A stretch of DNA of 63,421 nucleotides from a virus (IMGVR_UViG_3300043672_000009:1-63421); one strand, 5' to 3'; shown: positions 8,281 to 45,215, numbered from the stretch's first letter. Translations and numbers: made by a program. Notes: a model not told the origin generated them from the letters alone.

Positions 8281-8628
8281 TCAGTTGCCGTGGAAGTTGC
8301 CAGCGACCTTGATTTCACCGGCCGCAACCACGGTTGCATCGGCATCTGGTCCGAGCAGCGTGATCGCCATCGCCAGGCCACTCGGGAAGTACATGCCATC
8401 GACACCGAGTTGCAGCGCCACCGTGCCATTGGCCGGCACGCCCACCGTGAGCGCCGGCACTGACGTGCCAACCGTCGGCGCCACTGCCAAGTTGTACAGC
8501 TTCACAAAGCCGATGGCCGCCCCGGTGTTGGTGGCGATCAGCGTCTTCAGCGTGGTGCCGCCGGCTGACAGCAAGCGGGCATTGGTGCTGGCCGCGGAGT
8601 TGACCAGGATCGGGTTCATTTGCGACAT
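8281..8628 (-). CDS. Small beta-rich virion protein (~115 aa)
   Basis: ORF track. ATG 8628 is preceded by GAGGA and follows the upstream stop at 8639-8641. Confidence 0.6.
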   Translation of the reverse strand: MSQMNPILVNSAASTNARLLSAGGTTLKTLIATNTGAAIGFVKLYNLAVAPTVGTSVPALTVGVPANGTVALQLGVDGMYFPSGLAMAITLLGPDADATVVAAGEIKVAGNFHGN

Positions 8629-12636: not shown

Positions 12637-14919
12637 TCAGATCCCAGTCCCGGAGGTGTTCTGCGGCGCGAGCTTCATCTGCATCTCGTCGCTCTTCATC
12701 CGGTTGTCCATGGCCTTGCCTGCCAGCATCGCCTTCATGTCGGCGAAGCTGATCTGCTGGTGGCCCTGCAGCCTCAGCATTTCCAACTGGATCTCGAACT
12801 GGTGCAGCCGCTCCGCGGACTGTCGATCGGCTTCGGCCTGTTGGGCCTTGAACTGCATCTCGGCCTGCGCCTGCGCACCCCGGGCTTCGTTCGTGGCCTG
12901 CAGCCCCTCGTTGCGGATCTGGGCGGCCTGCACGCGCGGATCCTGCGGCGGTTGCTGCTGCGCGCGCTCCGCGGCCTTGGCCTTGGACTCGTCAGGCGTG
13001 TATTGCACGGTCTTGATGTTGAACCCGCGAGCCCGCGCGATCTCCGCAATGAGCTTCTTCGGGTCCAGGTCGAGCGACGGGTCATCCTTGCTGGCCCACA
13101 GCATCACCAGGAAGTCGCTGTCTTCCGCACGCTGCACCAGCGCCGTGGCGCCACGGGCAGCAATCTGCGTGTCGCCCTTGTTGCCGGCCGGGATGGTGGG
13201 GTCCTGCATGTACCAGTCGTTGTATCGGCGCAGGTGCGGCACGATGAGGTAATCGTCGTACTGCTTGGCGATCACCCGCAGCGGGCTGGTCATGTTGGCC
13301 ATCAGCAGCCGCATGCCGCCCAGCGTCTCGGGTGTGGCGCCCTCCTTGAGCATGCCCTGCATCAGGATGGGCAGGTTGCTCAGGATGTCGAGCATCTCCA
13401 GCCAGAACTGCACGATCCCCTGCAGTTCGGCCTGCATGCTGGGGATGTTGAAGCTGGCGAACGCCTTTTGAATGTCGTTGATCGCATCCGACGCGTTGAA
13501 TCTCCACAGCTTGCGTCCGGTGATCTCGTAGATGCCATCCTCTGGCTCCACGGCATTGCCGTCGAAGACGATCTGGGGGCCGCCCGACAGGCCCGCGTTC
13601 TCCATCAGCTTGCGCACGGCCGCATTCAGGCCACGCTGTGCCACACCGACCTTGCGCGGGATGCCGCGGCCCCACGGTTGCCCGTCCACGATGTCCCAGG
13701 GGAACAGGTCGTACGGAAAGGTGCCGGTCTCCAGTGGGTTCAGGGCGCACTTCACGGCCCGGCCGTTGACCATGGTGAGGATCGCGGCCACCGGCGGCCC
13801 GATCATGTCGCCATCGTCCAACAGGCTCTCTCCGTCGCCCTTGCCTCGGTCCAAGCCCATCATCACCAGGTCTTCGGGGTCAACCTGGCCGTAGTAGTAG
13901 TAGACCTCGTACAGGCGCGCGTCGTTGAACGTGTCGCCCACGCCGTCGCGCCGCACGTCGGAACTGCCGCGCCCCACCAGCCGCGGACCCTCTTCCAGCG
14001 CCAGCGCAATCGACCCGGTGTCGTAGTCGGGTAGCGCAGCCAGGTCGGCCAGTGCGCGCCCGGTCAGAAAGTCGCGCTCCACGCAGTAGGAGCCCTTGTG
14101 CACGTTGTCGCCGCAGTCGGGCGCCGGGAAAAAGTCCTGCACGCGGATGCGCCTGCTGGTCGGGTCGATCTTCTTGGTGATGTCCAGCACGCCGATGCCG
14201 TCACGGATCGACCACTTCTTGGTGCACCGCTCCACCGGGATCGGACCCTTCAGGATCCCCGTCCCCAGCCGCCCGGCATCCCGGATGACCTTGCGCATCT
14301 CGGCGTAGACGGCGCCCTCTACGAACTTGTCCTCGATCCACAGCGCCTCTTTCTTTGCCGCTTCGTCCGCGCGGTGGTTAATCAGCTCGGCCACGTCCGA
14401 GGCGGGCGCCTGGCTGCCGTCCCCGAGCTGCACAGGTGTCTGCGTGCCCTGCTCTACTGCGTCGTCCAGGTCAGGCACCGGCGTGCGCTTCGTCTCCCAC
14501 GGCTTGTCGTCGTGCGGGACCAGCATCTCCTGCACCCGCGCTACGGCGATGTCGGTCTTGGGAGCCGTGACGTTCAGGTAGAGCGTGGACTGAGCGCCGG
14601 CCCGCTTCTTCTTAGGCAGTTGGTCGCGCGTCTTGACCACGTGCCGGGCGGTGCTGATTGCGTCCACCCCGTTGTACTGGTCTTCGTCCTCGGCCCAGAT
14701 CTCTTCGATGCCGGAACTGGCGCGGGCCTGCATGGCCTCGTAGATGCGCCGGTTGACGCGCGATTCCAGGATGGCCTTGTGGCCCTCTTGATCGTCGTAC
14801 GCGGCATCTTCGGCGCCATAGTCCTGCGTCGGCTCGGGCTCCACCTGGGCCGGCTGGCGCGAGCGCTTCAGCGCCTGCTGCTTGGGCGTCTTGCCCGGCT
14901 GGGTGGGTGTCGTGACCAT
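12637..14919 (-). CDS. Portal protein (~760 aa)
   Basis: Large ORF directly downstream of terL. Start moved to ATG 14919, which couples to the upstream stop (14919-14921). The C-terminus has a coiled coil. Confidence 0.8.
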   Translation of the reverse strand: MVTTPTQPGKTPKQQALKRSRQPAQVEPEPTQDYGAEDAAYDDQEGHKAILESRVNRRIYEAMQARASSGIEEIWAEDEDQYNGVDAISTARHVVKTRDQLPKKKRAGAQSTLYLNVTAPKTDIAVARVQEMLVPHDDKPWETKRTPVPDLDDAVEQGTQTPVQLGDGSQAPASDVAELINHRADEAAKKEALWIEDKFVEGAVYAEMRKVIRDAGRLGTGILKGPIPVERCTKKWSIRDGIGVLDITKKIDPTSRRIRVQDFFPAPDCGDNVHKGSYCVERDFLTGRALADLAALPDYDTGSIALALEEGPRLVGRGSSDVRRDGVGDTFNDARLYEVYYYYGQVDPEDLVMMGLDRGKGDGESLLDDGDMIGPPVAAILTMVNGRAVKCALNPLETGTFPYDLFPWDIVDGQPWGRGIPRKVGVAQRGLNAAVRKLMENAGLSGGPQIVFDGNAVEPEDGIYEITGRKLWRFNASDAINDIQKAFASFNIPSMQAELQGIVQFWLEMLDILSNLPILMQGMLKEGATPETLGGMRLLMANMTSPLRVIAKQYDDYLIVPHLRRYNDWYMQDPTIPAGNKGDTQIAARGATALVQRAEDSDFLVMLWASKDDPSLDLDPKKLIAEIARARGFNIKTVQYTPDESKAKAAERAQQQPPQDPRVQAAQIRNEGLQATNEARGAQAQAEMQFKAQQAEADRQSAERLHQFEIQLEMLRLQGHQQISFADMKAMLAGKAMDNRMKSDEMQMKLAPQNTSGTGI

Positions 14920-18488: not shown

Positions 18489-19279
18489 GCCGTCTTGCCT
18501 TTCTGGGCGCGCTTGCGCTCTCGGTCGATGATCCTGATGGCCTCGCGGCGCCGCTCCCGGTGGGCCGCCCGGCGCTCCGAGTTGGTCTTGCCGCGTGGTT
18601 TTGGCTCTGTAACGGCCCCGTTGGTCTCCGATTTCTCGGGGTTTGACCAATTCTCGGCCGATTCCGTAACGGACGCAACCGGATCGGACGGGGCGCCCAG
18701 CAGCGTGAGCATATCGGCCTGCAGGGCGGCCAGTTCGTCGGCCTCTGTCTGGCCCAGGCCGTCGCCTCCCACGCACGCCTTGGCCGTCAGGGTGCGCCAG
18801 CGCGCGATCTGCGCCTCTTGGTCGGCTGTGCGGGGCTGGTGGCGCTCCGGCTGGGGCGTGGCTGGCTCAGTGGCTTCAGCGGGAGCCGTGGGCGCGGCCT
18901 GGCTGGCCTCTTGCTGGATCATCCCGTCGCCCAGGGCTGCCGCAGACTCGCCAGCGGGCGGCGCCTTGCGTGGCCTGCGGGCCTTGCGCTGGGTGGCGGC
19001 TGGTGTTGGCACGGCCAGACCAACCTGCGCATCGGCCCATTCGTAGCCCATCCCGTCGCGCACCGGATGCGCCTTGGCATCGCTGGGCACCAGCACCACA
19101 TCCGCAGCCCCGCAGTGCGGCGCATGCAGCCTGCGGCACGCCTGGCAGCGCGTCAGGGCCACCATGGGCGGGCGGGCGCTTGGCAACCCAGGGCCACCCG
19201 AGAGGTTGCCAGCCAGCGTTAGTGCCTGCTTGCAGCCGATGGCAGCCGAATGGTCGATTCCGCATTTTGTGCACCGCAC
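18485..19279 (-). CDS. Cys-rich (zinc-ribbon-like) protein with a basic C-terminus (~264 aa); candidate regulator
   Basis: GTG 19279 with AAGGAGAG 5-6 nt upstream. CxxC pairs (RCTKCG, RCQACRRLHAPHCG). Arg/Lys-rich tail. Confidence 0.6.
   Translation of the reverse strand: MRCTKCGIDHSAAIGCKQALTLAGNLSGGPGLPSARPPMVALTRCQACRRLHAPHCGAADVVLVPSDAKAHPVRDGMGYEWADAQVGLAVPTPAATQRKARRPRKAPPAGESAAALGDGMIQQEASQAAPTAPAEATEPATPQPERHQPRTADQEAQIARWRTLTAKACVGGDGLGQTEADELAALQADMLTLLGAPSDPVASVTESAENWSNPEKSETNGAVTEPKPRGKTNSERRAAHRERRREAIRIIDRERKRAQKGKTA
19179..19212. promoter_or_regulatory. Everted motif pair CTTGGCAACC-N15-GGTTGCCAG inside the 5' end of the Cys-rich gene
   Basis: Read directly. Confidence 0.5.
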
Positions 19280-19293
19280 TATTTCTCTCCTTT

Positions 19294-19364
19294 GGTTGCC
19301 AGAATGCGCACCATTGTGGTGATTAATGAGGTCTGGCAACCCTCGATTTTTGGCTTTGGCAACC
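19294..19364 (-). promoter_or_regulatory. Cluster B: GGTTGCCAG (19294-19302), CTGGCAACCC (19333-19342), TTTGGCAACC (19355-19364) in the divergent control region
   Basis: Same direct-direct-inverted arrangement (read on the minus strand) as cluster A. The innermost copy abuts the RBS of the 19279 gene. Confidence 0.6.
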
Positions 19365-19469
19365 ATTCTTGACTGTATCCGCTATCTCCGCGCCCCGATA
19401 CCGCTGTCTGGCCGTCAACCATGCCTCTTACCGTTCGTCGGAAAGTGTTGTGCACGTGTGAAATGCATC

Positions 19470-19497
19470 TTGCATCGCTACGTTTCGCACCTATACT
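19470..19497 (+). promoter_or_regulatory. Sigma70-like early promoter TTGCAT-N16-TATACT
   Basis: Read directly. The -10 ends 6 nt before ATG 19504. Confidence 0.45.
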
Positions 19498-19548
19498 ATT
19501 CTCATGCATCCGGCGCTGGGCTGGCTGCGAGACCAGATGGAGAGCGAC

Positions 19549-19761
19549 ATGAACAAGGGCGAGCAGCGCGAAGTGCAGAAGATCCGGGCCTTGGTGTCCG
19601 CTGGCGAAATGGACATGGCCGCTCGCTCGATGGCCCCGCTGCTCAGGGCGGCCTCTGTGCGGAACCGCGATGAGTTGCTTGGCGTGGCCAACGAGCTCAA
19701 GATCCGCAACCACCTGCGCGCCTTGAATGGCACCTACGTGGCGAACGGCGAAGCCTGCTGA
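19549..19761 (+). CDS. Early small protein (70 aa from ATG 19549; 85 aa if leaderless from 19504)
   Basis: GGAGAG lies 4 nt upstream of ATG 19549. The ORF track starts at 19504. Confidence 0.55.
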   Translation: MNKGEQREVQKIRALVSAGEMDMAARSMAPLLRAASVRNRDELLGVANELKIRNHLRALNGTYVANGEAC

Positions 19762-31295: not shown

Positions 31296-32960
31296 TCAGT
31301 CCCAACGGTCCAGCACGTAGCTCAGGATGCTGCCAGCGGACCACACGCGCGCCGTGGCATTCCAAGATGCACTCGACTTGCTGAGCATCAAACCGGCCGC
31401 GTGCGGTTCCTTCAAACCTTCGATGCTGGCGCCTTTGGAGTACGCCTCAATCACCGAGCGGATGCCGTGGAACTCGGCCTTCATGATTTCCGGGAACAGA
31501 GCCGCCCCTGCCATTCGCGTTTCGCGCGCTCCGGACAGGACGAATATCACGCCGGCGCCGTGGTGTTCGTTGCAACCACCCCACATCGACGGCTCCAGCG
31601 TGATCGCATCCACGCCCACAAACTCCCCGCCATCTAGGCCGAACTGGCGCGCGCTTGATCCGTGAACCCAGACGTACGACGAAACTGGGTTGCGCGCGTC
31701 TTCGTGATCACATTGAAGGATCGGTGGGGCGTCAGCGTTCACGGCTGTCACCAGGGCCGTGAAGTTTCCGATATTCGGAACCATCATCTCCATGCGCTCC
31801 GCATTCGGCAGCACGATGCACCGGAACTTATTCCACGTCATCGTCTGCGCAGGGATGCGCATGCTGGAAGGCGCCGGCTCTGCGCCCTTCGGCTTCAGGT
31901 GGCCGAACACGCCACCAGCAGGCGCATCGGGCTTGGCAGGCGCTGGGCGCCACAGAGCTTTCACCTCATCCAGTCGCGCGAACCTGCGCGCAAGCGAACC
32001 GGCCGCACCAAGCTGCGCCATCACCTTCTCGGCTGCCGCGATGGCGCCAGCGGTTGGCGCCGCCTGCGGGCGCTGGTACTGAAGCGGGCTCATCTTGGCC
32101 TTGAACGCGCTCGAAACGTTTTCGAAGCACTTGCCGGCCGCGATGTCTTCCAGCAGCGTGCCGATCATGCTGCTGCGCGGATGGCAGAAGCCGGCCGGGG
32201 CCGATGCGACAGCGCGCCACACGACGTTGGCCTTGCCAGTCCCATGCGAGCCAGCCCGGGCCACGTGCAGGCCATGCAGCCACTCGGCTTGGCCGAGCAC
32301 CTTCTCGGCACGATAGAGCGAGTCGCTGCGCAGTAGTTGTAGCGCCGTCTCCAGGTGCGGCAGTTTGAACTCTTCCAGGGCGCGCATGACCGTGTTGAAG
32401 TCTTCGCGCTTCTCGGCCATCACCTGGCTTTCGGTCTGGGTGAAGCCCTTGTGCAGCATATCGGCGAGCGGCACCACAGCCAGGTGGCGCCATGGGCCAG
32501 TCTGCGGGGTGCCCCACACCTTGTCGGACGACACGAACGGCCACATCACACGCGCCCGTCGCACTTCCTTGGCCATGGCCGCTATGGCCGGCTTGTAGGC
32601 TGCCGGCGCATCGTCCTCATGCCAGATAGCGGACGTTGCCATTCCGGCGCCGTCGATGGTGACCAGCGAACCGAAGCGTTCGATGAATTTCCGGCAGGCG
32701 TGGCAGTTGTGGTGCTGACGTTCTGCCGGGTCCGTGAAGCTGCCCAGGTAGGTGCCCCACAGGTCCCGCGCATCGGTCTGGAACAGCGGCACGAATCCGC
32801 CGTCGATGTTCGCCATGAAACGGGCCTGTACGCGAGCCAAGAAGGCTTCGTACTCTGCGTCGTCGTGGTTGCCGTGCGCTACTGCGCTCTCTGAAATCTG
32901 GATGTTCACGCTGATCCTTCGTTGCGAGGCCGAATGCACCCGGTCTCTTGGTGGTTTCAT
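31296..32960 (-). CDS. 554-aa protein of unknown function with a HHNCHACRKFIERFG Cys/His motif
   Basis: ATG 32960 in an ATGA overlap with the upstream stop. The ORF-track N-terminal extension overlaps the upstream gene and is Arg-rich. Confidence 0.7.
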   Translation of the reverse strand: MKPPRDRVHSASQRRISVNIQISESAVAHGNHDDAEYEAFLARVQARFMANIDGGFVPLFQTDARDLWGTYLGSFTDPAERQHHNCHACRKFIERFGSLVTIDGAGMATSAIWHEDDAPAAYKPAIAAMAKEVRRARVMWPFVSSDKVWGTPQTGPWRHLAVVPLADMLHKGFTQTESQVMAEKREDFNTVMRALEEFKLPHLETALQLLRSDSLYRAEKVLGQAEWLHGLHVARAGSHGTGKANVVWRAVASAPAGFCHPRSSMIGTLLEDIAAGKCFENVSSAFKAKMSPLQYQRPQAAPTAGAIAAAEKVMAQLGAAGSLARRFARLDEVKALWRPAPAKPDAPAGGVFGHLKPKGAEPAPSSMRIPAQTMTWNKFRCIVLPNAERMEMMVPNIGNFTALVTAVNADAPPILQCDHEDARNPVSSYVWVHGSSARQFGLDGGEFVGVDAITLEPSMWGGCNEHHGAGVIFVLSGARETRMAGAALFPEIMKAEFHGIRSVIEAYSKGASIEGLKEPHAAGLMLSKSSASWNATARVWSAGSILSYVLDRWD

Positions 32961-33448
32961 GTTCTGTCGGCCTGCATTGGCGCCGGCCGCTTCGTTGCCG
33001 AGCCCGACTTCGCGTTCAGCCTCTGCCGCGTCTTTGCTGGGTGGTTGCCGTGGACCCATGCCAAGCAGTGAGAAACCAGTTCGGCGCATTGCTTGGCGTC
33101 CATGTGCGCGATGTGGGCGCGCTCCTGCGGCAGGTTCATTACCACCCGCATCCACGCGTACGCGGCCTTTCGGTTCATATGGCCGCGCTCCCACAAGGCA
33201 TCGAATGCGGTGTGCGACTTGCTGCGGGCCTTGCGTGTTGCCAGGTCTGCCAGGGTCCCGAGCGGCTCCGTTCCATCGCTGTCGATCTTGACACCGTTCT
33301 CCCACCGGTACGTGCCGGCCTTGTGGGTTCCGACGTACGCGCCGCACGGTAGGCAGGACCACGCCATTCCGTAGCTGCGACCGCGGTAGATGGCCGCGGA
33401 GTCGATGAGCTTTGCGGGCCGATTGCAGTATGGACAGATTGGTTCCAC
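32957..33448 (-). CDS. Zinc-finger protein, DUF3268-like (163 aa)
   Basis: CPYCNRPAKL...WSCLPCGAYVGTH. GTG start with GAGAGG RBS. Confidence 0.7.
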   Translation of the reverse strand: MEPICPYCNRPAKLIDSAAIYRGRSYGMAWSCLPCGAYVGTHKAGTYRWENGVKIDSDGTEPLGTLADLATRKARSKSHTAFDALWERGHMNRKAAYAWMRVVMNLPQERAHIAHMDAKQCAELVSHCLAWVHGNHPAKTRQRLNAKSGSATKRPAPMQADRT

Positions 33449-33518
33449 GCGCGCCTCTCGTCTAAGTAATGCTCTGGAATTGAATCACCATAGACAGACT
33501 AATGCAGGGGTTGACTGA

Positions 33519-33550
33519 TCCCCCTACCGCCCACCCTCTCCCGCTCATCC
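33519..33550 (-). other. G-quadruplex-type motif on the minus strand (GGG-N6-GGG-N3-GGG-N1-GGG-N5-GGGGG)
   Basis: Reverse complement of ccccctaccgcccaccctctcccgctcatccc. Confidence 0.5.
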
Positions 33551-33789
33551 CTGATATCCAAGATTCCATCATCGGACTCTGACGTTTAAGCGGCCGACTA
33601 ACTCCGCTGGTACGTCCCTACCACCCTCATCAGCCTTTGATGAGTCATTCGCTGGTCTGCCTGGGATGGCTCGCCAACAGGCCCCCTGCGGCGCCCTGGT
33701 TCTTGGATGCTGGTATCGATCTCAGCGCGGTCTTTGTCCGGTGCCCCGATGGCAAGGGCATGGCTCGTCACCACTGCCCGACCGGAGGC

Positions 33790-33874
33790 CCAGAAACGCA
33801 AAAGCCCCCTCGACTGCGTTCCAGGTGCTGCAACACCGGCAGGGCGTGTGCCCTGGGAACGCATGCGAGGGGGC
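33790..33874 (-). terminator. Very long imperfect hairpin followed by TTTTGCGTTTCT on the minus strand (intrinsic terminator-like)
   Basis: AGCCCCCTCG...CGAGGGGGCT outer stem (33802-33811 / 33865-33874). Inner stems GCGTT/AACGC, CCAGG/CCTGG and GCACAC/GTGTGC. Confidence 0.6.
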
Positions 33875-33968
33875 TCGAATGCTGAATCCACTGTTGCAGC
33901 AGTAGTGAGTGAAATGTGCCACAACTTCTCTTCCGCGTCAACACCACTCATCACATTTCGTGCGTCCA

Positions 33969-34238
33969 TCAGAACACCTCGAAACCCAGTTCGCGTAGGT
34001 CGGCCAGGGTCACCGTCTCCAGCCCGACCACAGCCAGGTACGCGGCCAGCGCGCCGGAATAGTCCGCATCCAGCACCATTCCGAAGTCGTCGGCGCCAAA
34101 GACGCCGCAGCGCCAGAATTCACCCTCCGGTCCGAGTGGGCGACACTGCATGCGCAGCCACTTGCGGCCGTACAGCGCCATGGATGGGTGGAAGTCTTCC
34201 TGGGTTGGCACCAGGCACTGCCGCGACGGTGCTTTCAT
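33969..34238 (-). CDS. Hypothetical protein (~89 aa)
   Basis: ATG 34238 overlap-coupled to the upstream stop. Confidence 0.55.
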   Translation of the reverse strand: MKAPSRQCLVPTQEDFHPSMALYGRKWLRMQCRPLGPEGEFWRCGVFGADDFGMVLDADYSGALAAYLAVVGLETVTLADLRELGFEVF

Positions 34239-34492
34239 CAAAGGTCCTTGCCGCCCATCAGGATCTTCACATCCGTCCACCCCATCGTCTCGACGTAGCG
34301 CCTGATCTGCTCGGCTGCCTCACGGTCGAAGTAGGGGTGCTCGTGGGCCGCCACGACCCGCCGCTTGCGCACCACGGTCTGGGTCTTGCCGGCGTTCCGG
34401 CTGTGCTTCTTGCTGGCCCGCATTCGCCGCTCGTAGGAGATCGTGCCTGGCGGTCTGCCGGTCACAACGAAGCCGCCGCGGTCGGCGCTCAT
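34238..34492 (-). CDS. Small basic protein (~84 aa)
   Basis: ATG 34492 in an ATGA overlap with the Cro-like gene stop. Confidence 0.55.
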   Translation of the reverse strand: MSADRGGFVVTGRPPGTISYERRMRASKKHSRNAGKTQTVVRKRRVVAAHEHPYFDREAAEQIRRYVETMGWTDVKILMGGKDL

Positions 34493-34668
34493 TGGGTGAC
34501 CCGAAACCAACGCGGCCTTTTGGCCCGCAGGAACCGCTCATGCTTCGGCGGCAGGTTCGGTTTCCAGGTCGGCCCGTACGTCGTCAGCACGGAGACGCCG
34601 AGGAGTTCGGCGAGCTTGTCGCGCCCACCCGCACGCTTGATTGCTTGGGATGTTTCCATGCTGCGCAT
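34489..34668 (-). CDS. Cro/YdaS-type HTH regulator (~59 aa)
   Basis: METSQAIKRAGGRDKLAELLGVSVLTTYG...W. First gene of the leftward operon, next to a palindromic operator. Confidence 0.7.
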   Translation of the reverse strand: MRSMETSQAIKRAGGRDKLAELLGVSVLTTYGPTWKPNLPPKHERFLRAKRPRWFRVTQ

Positions 34669-44221: not shown

Positions 44222-44403
44222 CCGACCCAACCGAACACGCGCAGATGTGCGAAGACTGCGAGACGCGCGAGCAGCGCCTGAGCGACTACGAGCGCGGCTT
44301 CGTGGACTCGATCAAGGCCCAGTTGGCAGCCGGTCGCACGCTGTCGAAGAAGCAGGCCGACAAGCTCGAAGAGATCTGGGACCGGGCGACAGACGGCGGT
44401 TGA
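44218..44403 (+). CDS. Small protein (61 aa)
   Basis: ATGA coupling to the previous ORF. Confidence 0.5.
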   Translation: MTDPTEHAQMCEDCETREQRLSDYERGFVDSIKAQLAAGRTLSKKQADKLEEIWDRATDGG

Positions 44404-44450
44404 CACGCCGGCGTGTTAGCACCACATTACAGAAGCACAAGGAGCAGACC

Positions 44451-45215
44451 ATGCGAATCAACGATCCTGAAGACCGCGCCATACGGCTGCACAGCCATGC
44501 CATTGCGGCGGCCAGGGAGCCGAATCCGGCCACGAAGACGGTGCAGAAACCATGCACAGCGGTGTGGGCGGAATCGTTCTCCAAGATCATGGGCGAGGGA
44601 GTTGCGGGCGATCCGGAGCCGGCCATGCGCTGCGGCGTCGATCTGGCAAAGCCAGGGACCGACACGGCGGCGGGTGTGAATAGTCGCAAGCCCAGTGTCA
44701 TTGACGCAATTCATGGCTCCGTGAGACTACCGCCCGGAGGCGCGCTTGCCGTGAATGCTGTCGGAGATGGGTTTGTTGGCGTCAAGCCGCCCAACAACAC
44801 CGCTGACCACGCGGCGTTCGCAATGAAGGCCAACATCGCGGCACACAAGGTCGCAGCATTGCATCGCGAGGGCTCGTGTGGGTTCGGCGCTCTTCTGACA
44901 CAGGCCCGTGTCAGTTGCGGCCTACCAGCGCAGCCGTTCGATGATGAAGACCGCAAGGAGTCATTGAGGCAGTTGGGTGAGAAGTTCGACAAGGCCATGT
45001 TTCTGGCCCTTACCGGTGGCCGCAAGCCCGGCGAGTTCTTCGTTGGAGATCGGGTCTACGTGACAACGCCCGGGATGAGGGGATTGTGCTTCACCCTACT
45101 GCGCAGCGATATGCATAGAAACTGGACCGCGAGGGCGGATGGAAAGAACGATGGAGTCATTTTTGTTCAAGACCATCACATTCGCCTGCTTGACGAACAG
45201 CCCGACGTGTCATGA
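44451..45215 (+). CDS. Hypothetical protein (254 aa)
   Basis: ATG 44451 with AAGGAG 7 nt upstream. Confidence 0.6.
   Translation: MRINDPEDRAIRLHSHAIAAAREPNPATKTVQKPCTAVWAESFSKIMGEGVAGDPEPAMRCGVDLAKPGTDTAAGVNSRKPSVIDAIHGSVRLPPGGALAVNAVGDGFVGVKPPNNTADHAAFAMKANIAAHKVAALHREGSCGFGALLTQARVSCGLPAQPFDDEDRKESLRQLGEKFDKAMFLALTGGRKPGEFFVGDRVYVTTPGMRGLCFTLLRSDMHRNWTARADGKNDGVIFVQDHHIRLLDEQPDVS

What the first reader, a model, noticed from the sequence alone, without database searches (positions are those of the whole stretch)
33449..33968. 520-bp non-coding island: giant hairpin terminator, G-quadruplex motif and pyrimidine-tract direct repeats (candidate ori or structured RNA)
This is by far the largest gap in an otherwise overlap-coupled genome, and it is visibly less GC-rich.
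- The only long ORF here (33598-33969, minus strand) has mixed third-codon positions, unlike neighbouring genes, and contains the hairpin.
- A ~73-nt nearly continuous hairpin (33802-33874) is followed on the minus strand by TTTTGCGTTTCT.
- A canonical G4 motif lies on the minus strand at 33519-33550, about 70 nt upstream of the replication-operon start codon.
- Degenerate direct repeats CCCTACC..CACCCTC..TCATC occur at 33521 and 33615.
- A perfect 7-bp hairpin CTCATCA-N5-TGATGAG lies at 33625-33643.
- A DnaA-box-like ATCCAC lies near 33884.

The island sits between the Cro-like mini-operon and the operon encoding the Zn-finger protein, ParB, loader and DnaB. It could therefore hold the replication origin, the middle promoter, a regulatory RNA, or a combination of these.
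Basis: partly seen in the sequence, partly recalled or inferred. Interest (0 to 1): 0.62.

Follow-up and report, generated by a model that had tools for sequence, protein, structure and literature searches.

The report
Conserved promoter-terminator-structured RNA cassette in phages
The gap holds no gene and shows no sign of a replication origin; it holds a self-contained cassette (promoter, giant terminator hairpin, roughly 300-base folded RNA) that five other uncultured phage contigs keep almost unchanged in front of different DNA-metabolism genes and that matches no catalogued RNA family.

Summary
The non-coding gap is real, and the hairpin, U-tract and 7-bp hairpin are as described.

Five homologues were found. 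Two came from DNA pattern scans. Three came from searching with the spurious ORF that gene callers place across the element.
- All six loci share a promoter, TTGAC(G/T)-N17-CA(A/C)A(G/T)T, whose hexamers are fixed while the spacer varies.
- All six have a giant Y-shaped hairpin followed by UUUUGCNUUU.
- All six have a core of about 300 nt that is 80-92% identical, and the conserved block ends at or just before the first downstream gene's ribosome-binding site.

The flanking genes differ: DUF3268, DUF5710, DUF5131 or an 81-aa ORF downstream, and unrelated ORFs upstream.

The core is not coding. It has 1-nt indels inside invariant blocks and no GC3 bias.

Compensatory changes support RNA helices on the minus strand:
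- a 12-bp helix spanning about 140 nt;
- an 18-20-bp helix closing unrelated 89-204-nt inserts in four loci.

Rfam gives no match, and the phage and plasmid collections give none.

No origin features were found.

Best reading, at about 0.5: a cis-acting promoter-attenuator-leader RNA that gates the delayed-early replication operon. That it is a structured RNA family at all I rate at about 0.85. The function is inferred only. The tool for finding sequencing runs was closed.

The parts
33936..33941 (-). -35 hexamer TTGACG of the cassette promoter
   Evidence: TTGAC is invariant in all six homologues while the flanks and the 17-nt spacer vary. It begins 28 nt after the stop codon of the upstream ORF.
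33913..33918 (-). -10 hexamer CACATT (family consensus CA[A/C]A[G/T]T, preceded by TG/GG). The inferred transcription start is near A33906.
   Evidence: The same promoter type recurs at 44400-44428(+) directly before a ribosome-binding site and an ATG. The start site is inferred, not measured.
33888..33905 (-). Small promoter-proximal hairpin (CUACUG...CAGUGG). The same 5' segment can instead pair with GGCAGUGGUGA at 33778-33768.
   Evidence: MFE fold. An 11-nt complementarity in the window and a 10-nt one in G1, despite an indel between them.
33803..33875 (-). Giant Y-shaped hairpin: 11 bp, a 2x2 internal loop, 8 bp, then a two-hairpin tip
   Evidence: -60.5 kcal/mol, z = -5.3. The G1 copy folds the same way, with a C-to-U change that keeps a G-U pair. 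The four long-variant loci carry a 125-nt hairpin of the same shape but different sequence at the same place.
33792..33803 (-). U-tract UUUUGCGUUUCU directly after the hairpin; an inferred intrinsic terminator or attenuator
   Evidence: The long variants keep UUUUGCUUUUGG (UUUAGCUUUUGG in L022) after an unrelated stem.
33488..33792 (-). Conserved core RNA of about 300 nt
   Evidence: 80-92% identical among six loci whose flanks are otherwise dissimilar. Covariation: 14 double-change cells against 5.8 +/- 2.0 in shuffles, 0 of 500 shuffles as high.
33776..33789 (-). P1 hairpin GCCU-CCGGUC-GGGC
   Evidence: One pair occurs as C-G, U-A and G-C across the homologues.
33709..33726 (-). Hairpin GCUG-N10-CAGC
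   Evidence: U-A in three loci and C-G in the other three.
33697..33708 (-). 5' strand (AUCCAAGAACCA) of the long-range helix
   Evidence: Pairs with 33556-33568. Three pairs change on both sides in L019, L021 and L022.
33556..33568 (-). 3' strand (UGGAAUCUUGGAU) of the long-range helix
   Evidence: As above. G-U variants occur only on this strand's reading (one search compared).
33625..33643 (-). Invariant 7-bp hairpin CUCAUCA-AAGGC-UGAUGAG
   Evidence: Identical in all six loci and present in at least five of the six individual MFE folds.
33609..33622 (-). Hairpin GGUA-GGGACG-UACC, conserved in all six loci with one loop substitution in L022
33521..33553 (-). Purine-rich linker of variable sequence. 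In the window it contains the G4 motif at 33530-33551.
   Evidence: Purine richness is kept but the sequence and the number of G-runs are not. G4 motifs are not enriched in the window.
33507..33524 (-). Terminal hairpin GGGG-AUCAGUCAA-CCCC with an invariant 9-nt loop
   Evidence: Invariant in all six loci.
33446..33459 (-). Ribosome-binding site GAGAGG and the GTG start of the DUF3268 zinc-finger gene (32957-33448)
   Evidence: In G1, L019, L021 and L022 the conserved block itself ends in GGAGAA, 7-8 nt before the next gene's start.
33598..33969 (-). Spurious 123-aa ORF across the hairpin and half of the core
   Evidence: No GC3 bias, no Pfam or PHROG hit, and the frame is broken by 1-nt indels relative to the homologues.

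Best explanation
The gap is a self-contained expression cassette read on the minus strand.

1. A sigma-70-type promoter (-35 at 33941-33936, -10 at 33918-33913) starts an RNA near 33906.
2. About 30 nt downstream the RNA forms a giant Y-shaped hairpin followed by UUUUGCGUUUCU. This is an intrinsic terminator or attenuator. It would also stop the immediate-early leftward transcript coming from the switch region near 34.7 kb.
3. Polymerases that read through transcribe a multi-helix leader of about 300 nt, 33792-33488, which is extremely conserved.
4. In four of the six loci the conserved block ends in the ribosome-binding site of the first downstream gene. In the window that gene is the DUF3268 gene, which heads an operon also encoding ParB and DnaB, and about 30 non-conserved nt lie between the block and its ribosome-binding site.

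I propose that the cassette works in cis as a two-step gate. The terminator limits how much transcription enters the operon. The folded core, through a conserved partner that is still unknown (a host or phage protein, or a small ligand), sets translation, stability or processivity of the delayed-early message.

Shown here: the conservation, the non-coding nature, the strand, the promoter hexamers, the hairpin-plus-U-tract architecture and the helix covariation.
Inferred: that transcription occurs, that termination occurs, and the regulatory role.
For: - Non-coding: there is no GC3 periodicity. 1-nt indels lie inside invariant blocks, and the amino-acid sequence is not conserved between compensating indels.
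- Six homologues: the window; G1 and G2 from IMG/VR; L019, L021 and L022 found through the ORF trick.
- The cassette is the stretch common to all six loci and the best-conserved DNA between the window and G1 and between the window and G2. The upstream ORFs are not homologous across the loci. The downstream genes differ.
- Promoter: the hexamers are fixed and the spacer varies.
- Terminator: two unrelated giant Y-hairpins both keep a UUUUGCNUUU-type tract directly after the stem.
- Covariation in the core: 14 double-change cells against 5.8 +/- 2.0 in shuffles, 0 of 500 as high, with slid controls at 0-1. With four sequences the result was 1 of 500.
- The helix closing the insert keeps 17-20 pairs around unrelated 89-204-nt inserts, with five double changes in G2.
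- Strand: the minus strand folds better, z = -2.65 against -0.70, and alifold gives -93.5 against -83.2. There are 42 G-U cells; 96% of cells pair on this strand and 88% on the other.
- The conserved block ends in GGAGAA, the ribosome-binding site of the next gene, in four loci. In L019 and L021 the differences between the two copies at the first codons after a UUG start are synonymous.
Against: - There are no transcript data.
- The core lies downstream of the terminator, so it cannot control that terminator co-transcriptionally as a riboswitch would.
- No complementarity of 7 nt or more links the ribosome-binding region to the upstream RNA in five of the six loci, so there is no evident sequestering helix.
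- The -10 element is far from TATAAT, and the consensus promoter scan did not flag the site.
- Only six sequences exist. The central 130 nt are nearly invariant, so their fold is unresolved and the individual MFE folds disagree.
- Conservation higher than that of neighbouring proteins, together with 89-204-nt expansion inserts, is more typical of stand-alone large ncRNAs than of simple leaders.
Confidence: 0.5

Rival explanations
1. It is a stand-alone large non-coding RNA, about 420 nt in the window and 650-750 nt in the long variants. It may be processed at its long duplexes and acts independently of the neighbouring genes, as proposed for the phage-associated large RNAs ROOL and GOLLD. Alternatively, the short promoter-to-terminator product of about 113 nt is a trans-acting small RNA.
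For: - It has its own conserved promoter.
- The cassette travels between unrelated flanks, and its 5' domain and core recombine as modules: the G1 core is 92% identical to that of L021 although their 5' domains are of different types.
- About 130 nt are nearly invariant.
- Peripheral inserts of 89-204 nt are closed by 18-20-bp helices.
- The long variants have up to 31 consecutive predicted pairs in L021, long enough to be RNase III substrates.
Against: - There is no terminator at the 3' end. The terminal hairpin has only 4 G-C pairs and a poor U-tract.
- The conserved block runs into the next gene's ribosome-binding site in four loci.
- The cassette always has the same orientation as the downstream operon and the same position, at its head.
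Confidence: 0.25
2. It is a transcript-primed replication origin. The promoter-driven structured RNA forms a persistent RNA-DNA hybrid at its purine- and G-rich 3' part and primes DNA synthesis, as ColE1 RNA II or the phage T4 R-loop origins do.
For: - The cassette heads the replication module in the window and in G2.
- A purine-rich tract is kept at the 3' end of the core in all six loci.
- The cumulative GC-skew minimum lies within about 1.5 kb.
Against: - The G-run content is not conserved: G2 and L022 have only two G-runs.
- In G1 and L022 the cassette precedes genes that are not replication genes, an 81-aa ORF and DUF5131.
- The skew minimum coincides with the strand switch of the genes.
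- There are no iterons, DnaA boxes or AT-rich element inside the conserved block.
Confidence: 0.1
3. The structure forms in single-stranded DNA, as a single-strand initiation site or a recombination site, rather than in RNA.
For: Covariation cannot distinguish ssDNA from RNA. Weinberg et al. 2017 (PMC5737381) make this point for plasmid- and replication-associated motifs of 223-349 nt.
Against: - A conserved promoter lies at a fixed distance and in the matching orientation.
- A U-tract follows the hairpin.
- The block abuts the ribosome-binding site.
- G-U (G-T) pairs occur on the transcribed-sense strand only.
Confidence: 0.05
4. A small protein is encoded here: the 123-aa ORF, or the longer ORFs that gene callers placed across the element in the relatives.
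For: Open frames span the element in several loci, and public gene calls exist for it (P0005, P0006, P0007).
Against: - There is no GC3 bias.
- Five or more 1-nt indels lie in conserved blocks.
- The amino-acid sequence changes completely between compensating indels while the nucleotides are conserved.
- There are no Pfam or PHROG hits.
- A profile search of 1.84 billion proteins found only these same artefactual ORFs.
Confidence: 0.02

Closest known systems
Lambdoid late gate PR' - 6S RNA - tR' with antiterminator Q
   Same: A promoter is followed within about 110-200 nt by a strong intrinsic terminator at the head of a long operon. Most transcripts would then be short unless read-through is induced.
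   Different: - No Q-like gene was found. The ORFs just upstream are not homologous between loci, and the window's upstream ORF has no Pfam hit.
- The gated operon is a delayed-early DNA-metabolism operon, not a late one.
- Lambda has nothing like the 300-nt conserved core after the terminator.
ROOL and GOLLD large phage-associated ncRNAs (Weinberg et al. 2017, PMC5737381; cryo-EM preprint 10.1101/2024.12.08.627333)
   Same: A large, ornate, multi-helix RNA carried by phages, with variable peripheral domains and unknown function.
   Different: - It matches neither Rfam model.
- It is not near tRNA genes; the window has none.
- It abuts a ribosome-binding site.
- It is known from only six uncultured phage contigs.
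P1/P7 c4 and P4 CI immunity RNAs in operon leaders (Rfam RF01695)
   Same: A structured RNA embedded in the untranslated leader of an early or replication operon, with a terminator in the leader.
   Different: - There is no Rfam match at E <= 10.
- No conserved antisense word is complementary to the ribosome-binding or start region.
- It is much larger.
ColE1 RNA II pre-primer
   Same: A promoter-driven structured RNA of several hundred nucleotides at a replication region, with a purine- or G-rich segment.
   Different: - No origin features were found.
- The G-runs are not conserved.
- No antisense RNA I-type unit is evident: the opposite strand has no U-tract after the hairpin.
- The cassette also sits in front of non-replication genes.
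DUF3268 RNA motif (Weinberg et al. 2017; discussed as a k-junction in PMC8191799)
   Same: A structured RNA candidate named for its position upstream of DUF3268 genes. The cassette precedes a DUF3268 gene in the window and in G2.
   Different: No Rfam family, whatever its name, matches this region even at E <= 10. Four of the six loci have a different downstream gene. I could not confirm that this motif's model is in the library that was searched.

Membership tests
Any Rfam 15 family (including ROOL, GOLLD, C4/CI, riboswitches, ribozymes, tmRNA, RNase P) | A covariance-model match at the gathering score, or at least a low E-value | tested here: not met
   There are no matches at gathering score in the whole window. 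At E <= 10 in 33350-34050 only two miRNA-hairpin artefacts appear. Nothing relevant appears in L019, L021 or L022. The window has no tRNA or tmRNA gene.
Intrinsic (Rho-independent) terminator | A G+C-rich stem directly followed by a U-rich tract on the transcribed strand | tested here: met
   The window has a stem of 11+8 bp followed by UUUUGCGUUUCU. Unrelated stems in four loci are followed by UUUUGCUUUUGG or UUUAGCUUUUGG. The 73-125-nt branched hairpin is atypically large.
Intrinsic (Rho-independent) terminator | Transcripts actually end there | not testable with these tools
Sigma-70-type promoter | -35 and -10 hexamers 16-18 bp apart, conserved while the spacer drifts | tested here: met
   TTGAC(G/T)-N17-CA(A/C)A(G/T)T is present in all six loci with variable spacers. 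The -10 hexamer keeps only A2 and T6 of TATAAT in every locus and A4 in five of six, and the consensus scanner did not flag the site.
Structured RNA (generic) | Compensatory base changes in predicted helices beyond the controls | tested here: met
   for the core, for the 5' domain and for the helix closing the insert. The sample is only six sequences, and the central part is invariant.
Bacterial or phage replication origin | Iterons or initiator boxes, DnaA boxes, and an AT-rich unwinding element | tested here: not met
   There are no direct-repeat families beyond chance pairs. There is no DnaA box within 2 mismatches in the gap, and none are enriched in the window. The core is 60% G+C.
G-quadruplex element | Four G3+ runs with loops of 1-7 nt, conserved among relatives | tested here: not met
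   The motif is present in the window at 33530-33551. It is absent in G2 and L022. Such motifs are not enriched: 7 found against 11.8 +/- 3.3 expected.
c4/CI-type antisense immunity RNA | A loop word complementary to target boxes, one of which covers the ribosome-binding site or start codon | tested here: not met
   There is no complementarity of 7 nt or more between the tail or ribosome-binding region and the upstream RNA in five of six loci. The one 8-nt match in the window is not conserved.
Lambda-type Q antitermination gate | A Q-family gene immediately upstream of the promoter | tested here: inconclusive
   The upstream ORFs have no Pfam or PHROG hits and are not homologous across the loci. 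Q families are diverse, so absence is not proven.
Protein-coding gene | A conserved reading frame, codon-position bias and homologues | tested here: not met

The most novel reading that the evidence does not exclude
The cassette encodes a new class of large, modular phage ncRNA, 420-750 nt long, with a nearly invariant 130-nt centre and exchangeable peripheral domains. It would have an autonomous biochemical role, for example a ribozyme, an RNA-only assembly like ROOL or GOLLD, or a decoy or hijacker of a conserved host machine. It would be transcribed from its own promoter and released by processing at its 20-30-bp duplexes. Its position at the head of the operon would then be secondary.
Probability: 0.2. 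Interest if true: 0.8.

Novelty: new variant of a known kind. Interest (0 to 1): 0.62.

Why it matters
- Phage early-to-middle switching is understood for only a few model phages. This is a portable promoter-terminator-leader cassette kept at 80-92% nucleotide identity, while the genes on either side are swapped.
- Its 300-nt core is more conserved than the neighbouring proteins and matches no catalogued RNA. That level of constraint implies a specific partner or a precise three-dimensional fold.
- If it is a gate, it is a new regulatory part for delayed-early phage genes in high-G+C, probably Gram-negative, hosts. If it is an autonomous large RNA, it adds to the small set of large structured bacterial and phage RNAs of unknown function.
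- The 'spurious ORF' trick used here is a practical way to find homologues of high-G+C non-coding elements in protein databases.

Tried and rejected
Searches that found nothing or only chance matches:
- blastn of the region or of the long variant against 50,697 phage records and 72,556 plasmids gave no match.
- The search for related loci with the DUF3268 protein, with the 103-aa upstream ORF and with an alignment of the two DUF3268 proteins found only G2.
- The search for homologous proteins with the DUF3268 protein found only relatives below 40% identity.
- The metagenome and genome-collection scans with CATCCAAGAACCAGGGCGCC gave only 20-25-nt chance matches. In hindsight that word lies on the covarying long-range helix and would miss L019-type members.
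- All eight scans of the viral collection were used, three through the search for related loci and five as DNA pattern scans; the pattern scans returned only G1 and G2.
- The genome search 'relatives' is not available for a virus record. The records behind L019, L021 and L022 are not held. The two MAGs with chance hits lack the element.

Readings considered and rejected:
- Hammerhead ribozyme, prompted by the CUGAUGAG word: the GAAA element is missing and there is no Rfam hit.
- parS or an operator array: helices that covary across 140-200 nt do not fit protein-binding palindromes.
- MITE or other mobile element: no terminal inverted repeats or target duplications were seen at the cassette boundaries in the alignments.
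- c4-type switch: no word complementary to the ribosome-binding site.

Limit: the individual MFE folds of the six cores agree on only two hairpins, so I do not offer a full secondary structure for the invariant centre.

Full report
**Context**

The window is a complete 63,421-bp IMG/VR virus record with direct terminal repeats and 64% G+C.

Around the finding, the minus strand carries an operon that begins with a DUF3268 zinc-finger gene (32957-33448). It continues through a phrog_1735 protein, a DUF6745 protein, a ParB-like protein and DnaB. Small ORFs at 33969-34510 lie upstream on the same strand. A RecE/RecT/SbcC-like operon diverges rightward from about 34.9 kb.

Earlier notes on this genome place a Cro-like gene and a divergent switch at about 34.7 kb, and report spanins, which would mean a Gram-negative host. 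I only partly checked the spanin claim: a LysC/Rz1-like Pfam hit falls below the family's cutoff.

**Checking the observation**

- The gap 33449-33968 lacks the strong GC3 periodicity of its neighbours and is modestly less G+C-rich, 0.587.
- The hairpin is real. It spans 33875-33803 on the minus strand, folds at -60.5 kcal/mol with z = -5.3, is Y-shaped with two tip hairpins, and is followed by UUUUGCGUUUCU.
- The 7-bp hairpin at 33625-33643 is real.
- The G4 motif exists at 33530-33551, but such motifs are not enriched in this G+C-rich genome: 7 found against 11.8 +/- 3.3 in shuffles.
- The 'DnaA-like' hexamer is more than 2 mismatches from the consensus. Near-boxes are not enriched either, 62 against 70.7 expected.
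- The degenerate pyrimidine repeats were not picked up by the repeat finder.

**Relatives**

A pattern taken from the hairpin found IMGVR_UViG_3300043637_000004, here called G1. Window 33485-33903 is 89.9% identical to it over 427 nt, although the adjacent genes do not match.

Two patterns from the core found IMGVR_UViG_3300042116_000004, here called G2. It shares only 33501-33793, at 85.5%, so it has the core without the window's hairpin.

Across whole records, the element is the best-conserved segment between the window and G1 and between the window and G2.

DNA scans of the metagenome and genome collections gave only chance 20-mers.

Gene callers place spurious ORFs across this G+C-rich element. 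I therefore searched the protein collection with those translations and fetched the contigs that encode the hits. This added three loci:
- L019 (ENA);
- L021 (NCBI GCA_013565735.1);
- L022 (Logan).

All three carry the element at 80-92% identity. An HMM search of 1.84 billion proteins added nothing further. No cultured phage or plasmid has the element.

**Not coding**

- There is no GC3 bias.
- Several 1-nt indels lie inside otherwise invariant blocks.
- Where two indels compensate between G1 and G2, the nucleotides stay conserved while the amino acids change completely.
- There are no Pfam or PHROG hits.

**Anatomy shared by the six loci**

1. *Promoter.* All six have TTGAC(G/T)-N17-CA(A/C)A(G/T)T, beginning at or within a few tens of nt after the end of the upstream ORF. 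The hexamers are fixed while the spacer and the flanks are unrelated. In the window the -35 is at 33941-33936 and the -10 at 33918-33913. The same promoter type occurs at 44400-44428(+), directly before a ribosome-binding site and an ATG.
2. *5' segment.* A short stretch carries a small hairpin.
3. *Giant Y-shaped hairpin followed by a U-tract.* The window and G1 have the 73-nt version followed by UUUUGCGUUUCU. G2, L019, L021 and L022 have an unrelated 125-nt version whose near-perfect stem reaches 31 consecutive pairs in L021, followed by UUUUGCUUUUGG. This version has its own covariation. Two unrelated sequences keeping the same shape and the same tail argues that hairpin plus U-tract, meaning termination or attenuation, is the selected feature.
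4. *Insert helix, long variants only.* An 18-20-bp helix closes inserts of 89-204 nt that are unrelated in sequence. G2 differs from the others at five positions on each strand, and all five changes are compensatory.
5. *Core of about 300 nt, window 33792-33488.* Its supported helices are:
   - P1, whose one pair occurs as C-G, U-A or G-C;
   - a GCYG-N10-CRGC hairpin, U-A in three loci and C-G in three;
   - a 12-bp long-range helix, 33708-33697 with 33568-33556, in which three pairs change on both sides.

   The core also has about 130 nearly invariant nucleotides, which contain the 7-bp hairpin and a GGUA-GGGACG-UACC hairpin. A purine-rich linker of variable sequence follows; in the window this is the 'G4'. 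The core ends in a terminal hairpin with an invariant AUCAGUCAA loop.
6. *End of the block.* In G1, L019, L021 and L022 the conserved block ends with CAUAUGGAGAA, and its GGAG lies 7-8 nt before the start of the next gene. For L019 and L021, synonymous differences show that the true start is a UUG upstream of the called start.

**Statistics and strand**

On the six-sequence core alignment, 96.3% of cells pair. Fourteen cells change on both sides, against 5.8 +/- 2.0 in shuffles (0 of 500 as high) and 0-1 in slid controls. The four-sequence test gave 1 of 500.

The minus strand is favoured on four counts:
- single-sequence z-scores of -2.65 against -0.70;
- alifold energy of -93.5 against -83.2;
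- 42 G-U cells, which would be A-C mismatches on the other strand, giving 96% against 88% of cells paired (this test is biased, because the structure was predicted on the minus strand);
- the orientation of the promoter, the U-tract and the ribosome-binding site.

The fold of the invariant centre is unresolved. The individual MFE folds agree on only two hairpins.

**A portable cassette**

- The upstream ORFs are not homologous across the six loci.
- The first downstream gene is DUF3268 in the window and G2, an 81-aa ORF in G1, DUF5710 in L019 and L021, and DUF5131 in L022.
- The G1 core is closer to that of L021 (92%) than to the window's (90%), although G1 shares the window's short 5' domain. 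The 5' domain and the core therefore recombine as modules.

**Comparison with known systems**

- Rfam 15 has no match at gathering score. Only hairpin artefacts appear at E <= 10 in the gap and at E <= 1 in L019, L021 and L022.
- It resembles the lambda PR'-tR' gate, a promoter followed shortly by a terminator, but I find no Q-like partner and lambda has no equivalent of the core.
- It resembles the P1 c4 and P4 CI leaders in position. There is, however, no conserved word complementary to the ribosome-binding region.
- It resembles ColE1 RNA II in size and in its purine-rich 3' part, but no origin features were found and the G-runs are not conserved.
- It resembles ROOL and GOLLD in being a large ornate phage RNA.
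- Weinberg et al. 2017 note that motifs associated with replication can be ssDNA (PMC5737381). Here the promoter, the U-tract and the ribosome-binding site argue for RNA.

Earlier notes from this scan describe promoter-leader-terminator units before the replication genes of unrelated phages. I took them as leads only and did not test them.

**Verdict**

I rate at about 0.85 that this is a genuine, previously uncatalogued structured RNA family with its own promoter. I rate at about 0.5 that it works in cis as an attenuator-plus-leader gate for the delayed-early operon. The main rival, at about 0.25, is an autonomous large ncRNA or small RNA. A transcript-primed origin (0.1) and an ssDNA structure (0.05) remain possible.

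All functional statements are inferences.

Noticed in passing
window 44400-44460 (+): A second promoter of the same type, TTGACA-N17-CACATT, is followed directly by AAGGAG and an ATG at 44452, with no structured leader. The pattern has 3 matches in the window against 0.21 expected.
   Followed up: partly
window 33892-33901 and 33826-33835: A perfect 10-nt complementarity links the promoter-proximal segment (UGCUGCAACA) to one tip branch of the giant hairpin (UGUUGCAGCA). The sequences are identical in G1, so there is no covariation test. It may be a pseudoknot or an alternative pairing.
   Followed up: partly
L005 8417-8436 / 8563-8582 and the core helix (G2); L019 likewise: In G2 and L019 the 5' strand of the insert-closing helix is also perfectly or nearly complementary (12 nt) to the 5' strand of the core's long-range helix, and the two words covary between loci. 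This could be an alternative pairing or switch, or a trace of an internal duplication.
   Followed up: partly
L019 796-830; L021 1640-1680: Synonymous differences (MRVNLNVKYE conserved) show that the DUF5710 gene probably starts at a UUG 7 nt after GGAGAA, upstream of the start called in the public gene models.
   Followed up: partly
window 19096-19555: Another stretch of about 460 nt has weak codon-position periodicity, G+C 0.59 and a G4 motif at 19156-19176. It may be a second sizeable non-coding region.
   Followed up: no
L019 3089-3194: A perfect palindrome at the contig end produces strong hits to miRNA hairpin models on both strands. It is most likely an assembly artefact.
   Followed up: no
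L017 (G2) 13450-14781: G2 carries the homologue of the window's DUF6745 tetrapeptide-repeat gene, with a long (D/G)AV-type repeat array.
   Followed up: no
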